A stretch of 64,000 bases of DNA from Escherichia coli. GTDB lineage: Bacteria > Pseudomonadota > Gammaproteobacteria > Enterobacterales > Enterobacteriaceae. The DNA is taken from NCBI RefSeq assembly GCF_024700885.2, contig NZ_CP117016.1. One strand, given 5' to 3'. The first letter of the stretch is position 1. Every line of letters starts with the position of its first letter. The position numbers were made by a program, and so were the translations under genes. Below the pieces are notes generated by a model. It searched no databases, was not told the origin of the DNA, and saw only the letters and a list, made by a program, of their open reading frames with translations. This document shows, piece by piece, positions 5,639-63,873 of the stretch.

Positions 5639-5712
5639 TGGAGCGGGCGAAGGGAATCGAACCCTCGTATAGAGCTTGGGAAGCTCTCGTTCTACCATTG
5701 AACTACGCCCGC
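5639..5712 (-). tRNA. glyU: tRNA-Gly (anticodon CCC)
   Basis: Reverse complement reads GCGGGCGTAGTTCAATGGTAGAACGAGAGCTTCCCAAGCTCTATACGAGGGTTCGATTCCCTTCGCCCGCTCCA with encoded CCA. Confidence 0.95.
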
Positions 5713-61433: not shown

Positions 61434-61617
61434 ATTTCTCTGAGATGTTCGCAAGCGGGCCAGTCCCCTGAGCCGATATTTCATACCACAAGAATGTGGC
61501 GCTCCGCGGTTGGTGAGCATGCTCGGTCCGTCCGAGAAGCCTTAAAACTGCGACGACACATTCACCTTGAACCAAGGGTTCAAGGGTTACAGCCTGCGGC
61601 GGCATCTCGGAGATTCC
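61434..61617 (+). ncRNA. ssrS: 6S RNA (RNA polymerase sigma70-holoenzyme regulator)
   Basis: Matches the remembered 6S sequence ATTTCTCTGAGATGTTCGCAAGCGGGCCAGTCCCCTGAGCC...GGCATCTCGGAGATTCCCT. Confidence 0.9.
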
Positions 61618-61691
61618 CTTCTTATCTGGCACCAGCCATGACGCAACTACCAGAACTCCCACTGACATTATCCCGACAAGAAATCCGCAAA

Positions 61692-62240
61692 ATGATTCGG
61701 CAACGTCGTCGTGCGTTAACGCCGGAACAACAGCAGGAAATGGGTCAACAAGCTGCTACCCGGATGATGACTTATCCCCCAGTGGTGATGGCGCATACGG
61801 TCGCTGTATTCCTCTCTTTTGATGGCGAACTCGACACCCAGCCACTCATAGAACAACTCTGGCGCGCCGGTAAGCGCGTATATCTTCCAGTTTTGCATCC
61901 CTTTAGTGCCGGTAATTTGCTGTTCCTGAATTACCATCCGCAAAGCGAACTGGTGATGAACAGGTTGAAGATCCATGAGCCAAAACTGGATGTGCGTGAC
62001 GTGCTACCCCTTTCCCGATTAGACGTGTTGATCACACCGCTGGTCGCCTTTGATGAGTACGGTCAGCGCCTGGGAATGGGCGGTGGTTTTTATGATCGAA
62101 CCTTACAAAACTGGCAGCACTATAAAATGCAACCGGTGGGTTATGCGCATGATTGTCAGTTGGTGGAAAAACTCCCCGTTGAAGAGTGGGATATCCCACT
62201 TCCTGCGGTGGTTACACCGTCGAAAGTCTGGGAGTGGTGA
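61692..62240 (+). CDS. fau: 5-formyltetrahydrofolate cyclo-ligase
   Basis: 182 aa from MIRQRRRALTPEQQQEMGQQAA...; lies just downstream of 6S RNA; ORF-track extension from 61494 would run through ssrS and is rejected. Confidence 0.85.
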   Translation: MIRQRRRALTPEQQQEMGQQAATRMMTYPPVVMAHTVAVFLSFDGELDTQPLIEQLWRAGKRVYLPVLHPFSAGNLLFLNYHPQSELVMNRLKIHEPKLDVRDVLPLSRLDVLITPLVAFDEYGQRLGMGGGFYDRTLQNWQHYKMQPVGYAHDCQLVEKLPVEEWDIPLPAVVTPSKVWEW

Positions 62241-62301
62241 GGGCGACACACCTGCATCGCCCTGATTGACATCGTTGATTCTTTAACCTAATTTAGTGAG
62301 T

Positions 62302-62445
62302 AAGGGTAAGGGAGGATGACTCCTCCCCTGAGACTGACTGTTAATAAGCTGGGAAACTTATGAGTAACAGTACAATCAGTATGATGACAAGTCGCATCAT
62401 AACCCTTCTCCTTCAAGCCCTCGCTTCGGTGAGGGCTTTACCGTT
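62302..62445 (+). ncRNA. sibC: SibC-like antisense sRNA (type I antitoxin), ends approximate
   Basis: Putative promoter TTGACA (62266-62271), 17-bp spacer, TAATTT (62289-62294); fully antisense to ibsC; 3' hairpin AGCCCTCGCTTCGGTGAGGGCT. Confidence 0.5.
62341..62400 (-). CDS. ibsC: IbsC-family 19-aa hydrophobic toxin (type I toxin-antitoxin)
   Basis: Reverse strand encodes ATG ATG CGA CTT GTC ATC ATA CTG ATT GTA CTG TTA CTC ATA AGT TTC CCA GCT TAT TAA = MMRLVIILIVLLLISFPAY; AAGGAG Shine-Dalgarno upstream. Confidence 0.75.
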   Translation of the reverse strand: MMRLVIILIVLLLISFPAY

Positions 62446-62588
62446 ACAGCCCCATGCTGCCCTGCCATCGTAAATCCCCATTAAATAAACACAACGCATT
62501 GATCTGACTTTGATTTATTTCTTCGAGCAGACTCGCAAAGGCAATTGCAGCGCACTACAAATGGCAGCGACATGCGCGGGAGAAGCGA

Positions 62589-62618
62589 TAAAAAAACGGG
62601 CAAGTCAGTGACCTGCCC
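62589..62618 (-). terminator. rho-independent terminator of serA
   Basis: On the minus strand, CGGGCAGGTCACTGACTTGCCCG followed by TTTTTTT. Confidence 0.7.
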
Positions 62619-62640
62619 GTTGATTTTCAGAGAAGGGGAA

Positions 62641-63873
62641 TTAGTACAGCAGGCGGGCGCGAATGGTACCCGGAATAGCTTTCATTGCCTGCAGCGCTTT
62701 TTCGGCAACGTCTTCGTCGGCTTCAATATCAATAACCACATAACCCATCTGGGCGGAAGTTTGCAGATATTGCGCGGCGATGTTGACGCCCTGCTCGGCG
62801 AAGATTTTGTTCAGCGCAGTTAGCACGCCCGGACGGTTTTCGTGGATGTGCATCAGACGACGCCCACCGTGCAGTGGCAGCGAGACTTCCGGGAAGTTCA
62901 CCGCAGAGAGCGTTGAGCCATTGTCAGAATACTTGATCAATTTACCCGCAACTTCCAGGCCGATATTCTCCTGCGCTTCCTGAGTCGAACCGCCAATGTG
63001 TGGCGTCAGAAGGACGTTGTCGAATTCACACAGCGGAGAGGTAAATGGATCGCTATTGGTTGCCGGTTCCGTCGGGAATACGTCGATTGCCGCCCCCGCC
63101 AGATGTTTGCTCGCCAGCGCGTCACACAGCGCCGGAATATCCACCACAGTACCGCGCGAAGCATTAATCAGCAGCGAGCCGGGCTTCATTAGTGAAATCT
63201 CTTTCGCACCCATCATATTTTTGGTGGACGGATTCTCTGGTACATGCAGACTCACCACATCGCTCATATTCAGCAGGTCAGAAAGATGCTGTACCTGAGT
63301 GGCGTTGCCCAGCGGCAGTTTGTTTTCAATATCATAAAAGTAAACATACATTCCCAGCGATTCAGCCAGAATGCCCAATTGCGTACCAATATGACCGTAG
63401 CCGATGATACCCAGCTTTTTGCCGCGCGCTTCAAAAGAACCCGCCGCCAGTTTGTTCCACACGCCACGGTGCGCTTTAGCATTGGCTTCCGGCACGCCGC
63501 GCAATAGCAGCAGCAGTTCGCCAATCACCAGCTCCGCAACAGAGCGCGTATTTGAGAACGGTGCGTTAAATACCGGGATCCCGCGTTTTGCCGCCGCATC
63601 CAGATCAACCTGGTTTGTTCCGATACAGAAACAGCCAATAGCGACCAGTTTTTCTGCGGCGTTGATCACGTCTTCAGTCAGATGGGTACGGGATCGCAGG
63701 CCGATGAAGTGGGCATCGCGGATGGATTCTTTTAATTGTTCATCATCCAGCGCGCCTTTGTGAAATTCGATGTTGGTGTAACCCGCTGCACGAAGGCTTT
63801 CAAGCGCCTTTTGGTGCACGCCTTCTACCAGCAGAAACTTAATCTTGTCTTTCTCCAGCGATACCTTTGCCAT
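62641..63873 (-). CDS. serA: D-3-phosphoglycerate dehydrogenase
   Basis: 410-aa ORF MAKVSLEKDKIKFLLVEGVHQ... with NAD-binding GxGxxG (GIIGYGHIG). Confidence 0.95.
   Translation of the reverse strand: MAKVSLEKDKIKFLLVEGVHQKALESLRAAGYTNIEFHKGALDDEQLKESIRDAHFIGLRSRTHLTEDVINAAEKLVAIGCFCIGTNQVDLDAAAKRGIPVFNAPFSNTRSVAELVIGELLLLLRGVPEANAKAHRGVWNKLAAGSFEARGKKLGIIGYGHIGTQLGILAESLGMYVYFYDIENKLPLGNATQVQHLSDLLNMSDVVSLHVPENPSTKNMMGAKEISLMKPGSLLINASRGTVVDIPALCDALASKHLAGAAIDVFPTEPATNSDPFTSPLCEFDNVLLTPHIGGSTQEAQENIGLEVAGKLIKYSDNGSTLSAVNFPEVSLPLHGGRRLMHIHENRPGVLTALNKIFAEQGVNIAAQYLQTSAQMGYVVIDIEADEDVAEKALQAMKAIPGTIRARLLY

What the first reader, a model, noticed from the sequence alone, without database searches (positions are those of the whole stretch)
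62266..62445. ibsC/sibC type I toxin-antitoxin locus with Pro at toxin residue 17
The minus strand encodes the 19-aa hydrophobic peptide MMRLVIILIVLLLISFPAY. The plus strand has a near-consensus promoter (TTGACA-17-TAATTT) that would drive a fully antisense RNA of about 140 nt ending in a hairpin. My memory of K-12 IbsC has Ser at position 17, so this may be a strain variant.
Basis: partly seen in the sequence, partly recalled or inferred. Interest (0 to 1): 0.5.

Follow-up and report, generated by a model that had tools for sequence, protein, structure and literature searches.

The report
Ordinary E. coli ibsC/sibC toxin-antitoxin locus
This is the well-known E. coli ibsC/sibC toxin-antitoxin pair in its usual place between fau and serA, and the proline at toxin residue 17 is the commoner and probably ancestral form, with K-12's serine the derived one.

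Summary
The minus strand at 62341-62400 encodes MMRLVIILIVLLLISFPAY. The plus strand matches the Rfam Sib RNA model (RF00113) at 136.5 bits against a threshold of 56, E 5e-28. The locus lies in the K-12 position: ssrS, fau, sibC/ibsC, serA. DNA identical over 400 bases is annotated ibsC in RefSeq (WP_071525914.1).

K-12 IbsC does have Ser17 (AGC), and here the codon is CCA, so all three bases differ. This is not a rare strain variant. An exact 31-mer carrying CCA occurs in 2789 of 5426 complete E. coli genomes, and the K-12 31-mer in 2165. The orthologous fau-serA modules of E. albertii, Escherichia sp. E1V33 and two of three Pseudocitrobacter genomes also carry Pro. So do 42 of 70 intact Ibs modules from species-representative genomes, against 2 with Ser.

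One point is worth adding. The triplet is SibC nucleotides 49-51, in the P5 loop of target-recognition domain 1. Han et al. 2010 swapped this same triplet to retarget SibC to ibsD. Because the two genes are antisense, toxin and antitoxin change together. Both alleles give the same predicted fold.

Verdict: already known, low interest.

The parts
62266..62271 (+). sibC promoter -35 hexamer TTGACA
   Evidence: Read directly. TTGAC is invariant in all five K-12 sib paralogs.
62289..62294 (+). sibC promoter -10 hexamer TAATTT (3 of 6 to TATAAT), preceded by C at -13
   Evidence: Read directly. It lies 17 nt after the -35 hexamer, with 7 nt between it and the K-12-mapped 5' end. The consensus scan did not call it. 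A sigma-S RNA polymerase ChIP peak at K-12 sibC is reported in PMC4447067.
62302..62442 (+). SibC antitoxin RNA, 141 nt; ends carried over from the K-12 annotation
   Evidence: K-12 b4446 coordinates mapped through a gap-free alignment. Rfam RF00113 scores 136.5 bits over 62266-62416. MFE is -55.3 kcal/mol, z -4.9.
62347..62369 (+). TRD1 (SibC nt 46-68, P5 stem-loop), which pairs inside the ibsC ORF
   Evidence: Defined in K-12 by Han et al. 2010, PMC2943612, and mapped by coordinates. The predicted P5 loop is nt 48-55.
62350..62352 (.). Polymorphic triplet: TGG on the plus strand (SibC U49-G50-G51), CCA on the minus strand (ibsC codon 17, Pro). K-12 has GCT/AGC (Ser).
   Evidence: Han et al. 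changed this same triplet, G49CU51 to UGC, to retarget SibC to ibsD.
62318..62319 (+). Second difference from K-12 within the RNA: GA against TG in the P2 hairpin loop (SibC nt 17-18; ibsC 3' UTR)
   Evidence: Alignment and folds.
62400..62416 (+). TRD2 (SibC nt 99-115, J1/7), which pairs with the ibsC translation-initiation region; identical to K-12
   Evidence: PMC2943612 and sequence comparison.
62415..62438 (+). SibC terminator hairpin: 10-bp stem, UUCG loop, short U tail
   Evidence: Fold. Conserved in all five K-12 paralogs.
62341..62400 (-). ibsC CDS: 19 codons plus TAA, encoding MMRLVIILIVLLLISFPAY
   Evidence: The identical DNA in PCN033 is annotated ibsC, WP_071525914.1.
62408..62413 (-). 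ibsC Shine-Dalgarno AAGGAG, 7 nt upstream of the ATG; lies under TRD2
   Evidence: Read directly. Han et al. place the TRD2 target in the translation-initiation region.
62302..62460 (-). ibsC mRNA, 159 nt: 5' end at 62460, with an 18-nt 5' overhang beyond the SibC 3' end
   Evidence: Han et al. mapped the 5' end by primer extension and used a 159-nt transcript. The pairings they report (ibsC G50/G51/G53 with SibC C110/C109/C107) fit this mapping. The sequence is identical to K-12 from 62354 to 62520.
62467..62494 (-). Inferred ibsC promoter: TTGTGT (62494-62489), 16-nt spacer, TACGAT (62472-62467)
   Evidence: Inferred from position relative to the mapped 5' end. It scores 8 of 12 to consensus and was not called by the scan. 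The figure in Han et al. that marks the elements could not be seen.

Best explanation
This is the chromosomal type I toxin-antitoxin module ibsC/sibC of E. coli. The minus strand makes a roughly 159-nt mRNA for a 19-residue hydrophobic membrane peptide, IbsC. In K-12, overproducing IbsC depolarises the inner membrane and stops growth. The plus strand makes the 141-nt SibC RNA from a TTGACA-17-TAATTT promoter. SibC is fully complementary to the ibsC mRNA apart from that mRNA's first 18 nt. Contact starts at either of two independent sites. TRD1 is the P5 loop, which pairs inside the ORF around codons 11 to 18. TRD2 is the single-stranded J1/7 region, which pairs over the Shine-Dalgarno sequence and start codon. 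Pairing then spreads, translation is blocked and the mRNA is degraded. The window carries the Pro17 allele. Its codon (CCA) is also SibC nt 49-51 (UGG) in the TRD1 loop, so toxin and antitoxin changed together and remain matched. Shown here: sequence identity, family membership, synteny, allele frequencies, outgroup states and identical predicted folds. Inferred from K-12 experiments: transcript ends, toxicity and the repression mechanism.
For: Rfam RF00113 matches full length at 136.5 bits, E 5.4e-28, and is the only family found locally even at E up to 1. Synteny matches K-12. The module differs from K-12 at only 6 positions between 62266 and 62500. Over the 180-nt module, 5424 of 5426 complete E. 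coli genomes match at 95% identity or more. Identical DNA is annotated 'type I toxin-antitoxin system toxin IbsC'. Both alleles give the same MFE structure at -55.3 kcal/mol, with both polymorphic patches in hairpin loops. The mRNA folds are also alike. The mechanism, TRD coordinates and ibsC 5' end come from PMC2943612. Toxicity and membrane depolarisation come from the review PMC8309996. In the census, the Pro17 31-mer is in 2789 genomes and the Ser17 31-mer in 2165. Pro is present at the orthologous locus in E. albertii, Escherichia sp. E1V33 and two of three Pseudocitrobacter genomes.
Against: Nothing found argues against the identification. There are three caveats. No expression data exist for this strain. 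The -10 hexamers of both promoters are weak, and the generic scan called neither promoter nor the SibC terminator. The toxicity of the Pro17 peptide itself was not found in any paper I could read, because Mok et al. 2010 is not held.
Confidence: 0.95

Rival explanations
1. The Pro17/UGG allele differs in function from the K-12 allele. It might change which ibs paralogs SibC can cross-repress, because the TRD1 discriminator is altered. It might also change toxin potency, because a proline sits three residues from the C-terminus. On this reading the Pro/Ser dimorphism is maintained by selection rather than being neutral.
For: The triplet is the one Han et al. swapped to retarget SibC to ibsD. 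All three bases differ and both alleles are common, 51% and 40%. Residue 17 is the second most variable position of the peptide family, and the triplet is more variable than the rest of TRD1. Tandem modules in O157:H7 differ at exactly codons 16-17. Residues 6-19, including the C-terminal ones, are reported as needed for IbsC toxicity.
Against: Han et al. found either TRD sufficient for repression, and TRD2 is identical to K-12 here, so cognate repression should be unaffected. Pro is the usual residue at this position in the family (42 of 70 modules), including K-12 IbsB and IbsE. A proline there is therefore compatible with a normal Ibs peptide. In PCN033, which is identical to the window over the 400-nt query, the one other module I examined still differs from this TRD1 at 4 of 23 positions.
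Confidence: 0.2
2. The module is a silent or decaying relic in this strain, not expressed or not toxic.
For: The -10 hexamers are weak and the consensus scan called no promoter. Four modules in other genera have ibs ORFs that run past the usual stop, so decay does occur in the family.
Against: The ORF is intact. Both promoter regions, the Shine-Dalgarno sequence, TRD2 and the terminator are identical to K-12, where both RNAs are detected. The module is kept at 95% identity or more in 5424 of 5426 genomes.
Confidence: 0.03
3. The Pro17 codon is a sequencing or assembly error in the window.
For: None beyond the oddity of three adjacent base differences.
Against: The exact 31-mer occurs once each in 2789 independent complete genomes. 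The whole 400-nt region is 100% identical in at least the 30 genomes listed.
Confidence: 0

Closest known systems
E. coli K-12 sibC (b4446) / ibsC (b4665)
   Same: It occupies the same chromosomal position between fau and serA. The RNA is the same length with the same predicted structure. Both promoters, the Shine-Dalgarno sequence, TRD2 and the terminator are identical, and 18 of 19 toxin residues match.
   Different: There are six base differences in the module. One is in the sibC promoter spacer (62285). Two are in the P2 loop (62318-62319). Three form the triplet at 62350-62352, which gives Pro17 for Ser17 and UGG for GCU in the TRD1 loop.
K-12 IbsB and IbsE (paralogous Ibs toxins)
   Same: Both have Pro at the antepenultimate position...SFPAY and ...SFPTY. 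They share the same module architecture.
   Different: They sit at other loci (yegL-mdtA and yqiK-hldE). They use different Pro codons (CCC, CCG) and differ at many other positions, so the window allele is not a simple copy of either.
Tandem ibs/sib modules in the fau-serA spacer of O157:H7 and many other E. coli
   Same: They occupy the same spacer and are nearly identical in sequence. The fau-proximal copy encodes ...SLPAY or ...SFPAY.
   Different: Those genomes carry a second module, ...SFGAY, about 393 nt away. The window has a single module.
Other chromosomal type I toxin-antitoxin pairs with small membrane toxins (tisB/istR-1, shoB/ohsC, ldr/rdl, hok/sok, H. pylori aapA1/isoA1)
   Same: Each pairs a small hydrophobic membrane-depolarising peptide with an antisense RNA that represses it (review PMC8309996).
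   Different: There is no sequence relationship. Sib is fully cis-antisense across the whole ORF and uses two independent recognition domains.

Membership tests
Sib RNA (Rfam RF00113, SIB_RNA) | Covariance-model score at or above the curated gathering score | tested here: met
   136.5 bits against 56, model positions 1-147 of 147, E 5.4e-28.
Sib RNA (Rfam RF00113, SIB_RNA) | Transcribed antisense to, and covering, an ibs ORF | tested here: met
   The ibsC ORF at 62341-62400 (minus) lies inside SibC at 62302-62442 (plus). The overlap is shown by sequence; transcription itself was not tested.
Sib RNA (Rfam RF00113, SIB_RNA) | For sibC specifically: location between fau (ygfA) and serA, downstream of ssrS | tested here: met
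   6S RNA is at 61434-61617, the fau ORF ends at 62240, and serA is at 62641-63873 on the minus strand. The order is the same as in K-12 and PCN033.
Sib RNA (Rfam RF00113, SIB_RNA) | Abundant RNA of about 140 nt that represses its cognate ibs mRNA | not testable with these tools
   Known for K-12 from PMC2943612. No expression data are available for this allele.
Ibs toxin family (type I toxin IbsC) | Hydrophobic peptide of 18-19 residues with the family pattern: MM at the start, an I/L/V-rich core, S at position 15, and A/T then Y/F at the C-terminus | tested here: met
   MMRLVIILIVLLLISFPAY fits every invariant column of 63 family members: M1, M2, I6, L8, L12, S15.
Ibs toxin family (type I toxin IbsC) | Identity to a protein already curated as IbsC | tested here: met
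   The identical DNA in PCN033 is annotated ibsC, WP_071525914.1, 'type I toxin-antitoxin system toxin IbsC'. Pfam and NCBIfam scans could not be run because the peptide is shorter than the tools' minimum length.
Ibs toxin family (type I toxin IbsC) | Growth arrest and membrane depolarisation on overexpression | not testable with these tools
   Shown for K-12 IbsC with Ser17 (review PMC8309996). I found no report for the Pro17 peptide.

The most novel reading that the evidence does not exclude
The Pro17/UGG versus Ser17/GCU dimorphism could be a selected switch at the TRD1 discriminator. Its effect would be to reset which Sib RNAs can cross-repress which ibs mRNAs as module copy number changes between strains: one or two modules at fau-serA, and one or two at yqiK-hldE. 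If so, peptide residue 17 varies mainly because of constraints on the antisense RNA and not because of toxin function.
Probability: 0.15. Interest if true: 0.35.

Novelty: already known. Interest (0 to 1): 0.1.

Why it matters
It matters little for discovery. The locus, both genes, the mechanism and this exact peptide are already curated. Two corrections are useful for annotation. First, K-12's Ser17 should not be treated as the reference state of IbsC, because Pro17 is commoner and probably ancestral. Second, the variable codon doubles as the specificity triplet of the antitoxin's TRD1 loop. Natural ibs alleles therefore form a ready-made series for testing how cis-antisense paralogs avoid cross-talk.

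Tried and rejected
1. The generic promoter and terminator scan found neither the sibC or ibsC promoters nor the SibC terminator. It found only the serA terminator at 62595-62621 (minus). I rejected this as evidence against the promoters because the K-12 transcript ends map correctly to the hexamers.

2. Three papers could not be read: Mok et al. 2010 (IbsC mutagenesis) and Fozo et al. 2008. Direct data on substitutions at residue 17 are therefore missing.

3. Gene conversion from a K-12-type paralog as the source of CCA was not supported. IbsB, IbsE and IbsD use CCC, CCG and GCA and have different flanks.

4. A permissive Rfam search of 62150-62700 found no other RNA family.

5. The 37-codon plus-strand ORF inside SibC (62360-62473) was set aside as a mechanical ORF. 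It has no visible ribosome-binding site and no annotation in any record examined.

6. Pfam, NCBIfam and PADLOC scans were not run because the 19-residue peptide is below the tools' length limits.

7. The first attempt to find PCN033's yqiK-hldE modules used the wrong coordinates. The second attempt succeeded.

Full report
**Observation**

The minus strand at 62341-62400 translates to MMRLVIILIVLLLISFPAY followed by TAA. On the plus strand, TTGACA lies at 62266-62271, a 17-nt spacer follows, and TAATTT lies at 62289-62294. The -35 hexamer is perfect. The -10 hexamer matches TATAAT at only 3 of 6, so 'near-consensus' is generous. The consensus scan called no promoter-like site in 62150-62700 and only the serA terminator at 62595-62621.

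The whole-window Rfam search found three RNAs above gathering score. They are 6S RNA at 61434-61617, a tRNA at 5642-5712, and SIB_RNA (RF00113) at 62266-62416 on the plus strand. The SIB_RNA hit scores 136.5 bits against a threshold of 56, E 5.4e-28, and is full length. A permissive local search found nothing else. The feature is real and far beyond chance.

**Identity**

The surrounding genes are 6S RNA (ssrS), the fau (ygfA) ORF ending at 62240, and serA at 62641-63873 on the minus strand. This is the order annotated in K-12 MG1655 and in E. coli PCN033: zapA, ssrS, fau, sibC/ibsC, serA. A 400-nt query across the spacer is 100% identical in PCN033 and at least 29 other complete genomes. There the ORF is annotated 'type I toxin-antitoxin system toxin IbsC', WP_071525914.1. 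Over the 180-nt module, 5424 of 5426 complete E. coli genomes match at 95% identity or more.

**Anatomy**

The alignment to K-12 has no gaps through the module, so I carried over the K-12 sibC annotation.

- SibC is 62302-62442, 141 nt. Its 5' end lies 7 nt past the end of the -10 hexamer.
- Han et al. 2010 (PMC2943612) mapped the ibsC 5' end and describe an 18-nt 5' overhang of the mRNA beyond SibC. That places the ibsC mRNA at 62460 down to 62302, 159 nt.
- The pairings they report (ibsC G50/G51/G53 with SibC C110/C109/C107) fit this mapping.
- Upstream on the minus strand, TTGTGT-16-TACGAT (62494-62467) is the likely ibsC promoter. This is my inference.
- The Shine-Dalgarno sequence AAGGAG lies at 62413-62408.
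- SibC folds to -55.3 kcal/mol, z -4.9. The fold has a closing P1 stem, three internal hairpins, and a 10-bp UUCG-loop terminator at 62415-62438.

**Differences from K-12**

Between 62266 and 62500 the two sequences differ at six positions:

- 62285, in the sibC promoter spacer.
- 62318-62319, in the P2 hairpin loop.
- 62350-62352, which is TGG here and GCT in K-12. On the minus strand this is codon 17, CCA against AGC, so all three bases differ.

Both alleles give the same predicted SibC structure and energy, and both variable patches fall in hairpin loops. The ibsC mRNA folds are also alike.

**What the triplet is**

The triplet 62350-62352 is SibC nt 49-51. Han et al. define TRD1 as nt 46-68 (the P5 loop) and TRD2 as nt 99-115. 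Either domain alone is sufficient for repression. To retarget SibC to ibsD through TRD1 they changed exactly 'G49CU51 to UGC'. The natural allele here is U49-G50-G51.

The 'Pro17 variant' is therefore also a change in the antitoxin's specificity loop. Because the genes are antisense, both partners change together. TRD2 is identical to K-12. In PCN033, which is identical to the window over the 400-nt query, the single module between yqiK and hldE encodes ...SFQAY. It differs from this TRD1 at 4 of 23 positions, so discrimination between the two modules looks preserved. I did not examine PCN033's yegL-mdtA (sibA/sibB) region.

**How common the allele is**

A 31-mer centred on the triplet needs an exact 28-mer to be found.

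- The window version occurs once each in 2789 of 5426 genomes.
- The K-12 version occurs in 2165 genomes.
- The remaining roughly 470 genomes carry other alleles. One example is O157:H7, with ...SLPAY and ...SFGAY in two tandem modules.

One scan of species-representative genomes with a conserved Sib pattern returned 68 loci holding 73 modules, 74 with the window's. Those flanked by fau and/or serA are the orthologs. Their states at residue 17 are:

- E. albertii: Pro (CCG).
- Escherichia sp. E1V33: Pro (CCA).
- Two of three Pseudocitrobacter genomes: Pro. The third has Thr.
- One Citrobacter: Ala.

Among 70 intact modules the antepenultimate residue is P 42, A 10, Q 7, H 6, S 2, and T, G and N once each. 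Pro is therefore the common and probably ancestral state, and K-12's AGC is derived.

Position 17 is the second most variable residue in the family, after position 4. The triplet is more variable (1.09 bits) than TRD1 as a whole (0.63 bits). One caveat applies to these figures. The search pattern fixed the P6 stem, the start codon and the Shine-Dalgarno complement, so conservation there is by construction.

**Mechanism**

The mechanism is inferred from K-12 experiments and was not tested here.

- IbsC is a membrane peptide that depolarises cells when overproduced (PMC8309996).
- SibC binds the ibsC mRNA through TRD1 or TRD2.
- Pairing then spreads, translation initiation is blocked and the mRNA is degraded.
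- Sigma-S RNA polymerase binds at K-12 sibC, with temperature-dependent effects of an rpoS mutation (PMC4447067). The C immediately upstream of TAATTT is consistent with a sigma-S-type -10, which is general knowledge.

**Verdict**

The locus is already known and this exact allele is already annotated. The useful additions are that Pro17 is the majority and ancestral allele, and that the codon coincides with the TRD1 specificity triplet. Interest is low.

Noticed in passing
L073 1176-1960 (E. coli O157:H7 F1273); L024 1-700 (E. coli SCPM-O-B-8794): The 180-nt sibC query gives two places in about 1871 of 5424 complete E. coli genomes. In the two genomes I examined, the second place is a tandem second ibs/sib module in the same fau-serA spacer, about 393 nt away. 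The toxins are ...SLPAY or ...SFPAY plus ...SFGAY and differ at codons 16-17. The window has one module.
   Followed up: partly
window 62520-62585: This stretch lies between the inferred ibsC promoter and the serA terminator. It is the reason 5324 E. coli genomes are only 90-95% identical over the 400-nt spacer. K-12 has clustered substitutions plus 7-nt and 5-nt deletions there. From about 62544 onward (the part where K-12 has the two deletions) the window version is identical to that of Escherichia sp. E1V33 and so looks ancestral. No RNA family matched.
   Followed up: partly
L075 14354-14771 (E. coli PCN033, yqiK-hldE spacer): PCN033, which is identical to the window over the 400-nt query, has a single ibs/sib module (MMKLVIILVVLLLVSFQAY) where K-12 has two, ibsD and ibsE. 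Module copy number therefore varies at this locus as well.
   Followed up: partly
L025, L032, L036, L058 (Citrobacter sedlakii, Citrobacter sp. MGH106 and two unnamed Enterobacteriaceae MAGs): Four Sib-pattern modules have ibs ORFs that run past the usual stop or diverge after residue 8-13. They may be decayed or extended toxins.
   Followed up: no
window 62350-62352 against L002 1400-1402: The change from TTC-CCA-GCT to TTC-AGC-GCT can be written as three adjacent substitutions. It can also be written as a 2-nt deletion (CC) plus a 2-nt GC duplication. No intermediate allele was looked for.
   Followed up: no
window 61434-61617 (+) and 5642-5712 (-): 6S RNA (ssrS, 139.8 bits) and a tRNA with anticodon CCC, so tRNA-Gly (71.6 bits). 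I read the anticodon from the alignment. From memory, its spacing from ssrS matches K-12 glyU.
   Followed up: no
window 61494-62240 (+): The mechanical fau ORF starts at an ATG at 61494, inside the 6S RNA gene. RefSeq annotates fau as 603 nt in PCN033 and 549 nt in K-12, so the start-codon choice differs between annotations.
   Followed up: no
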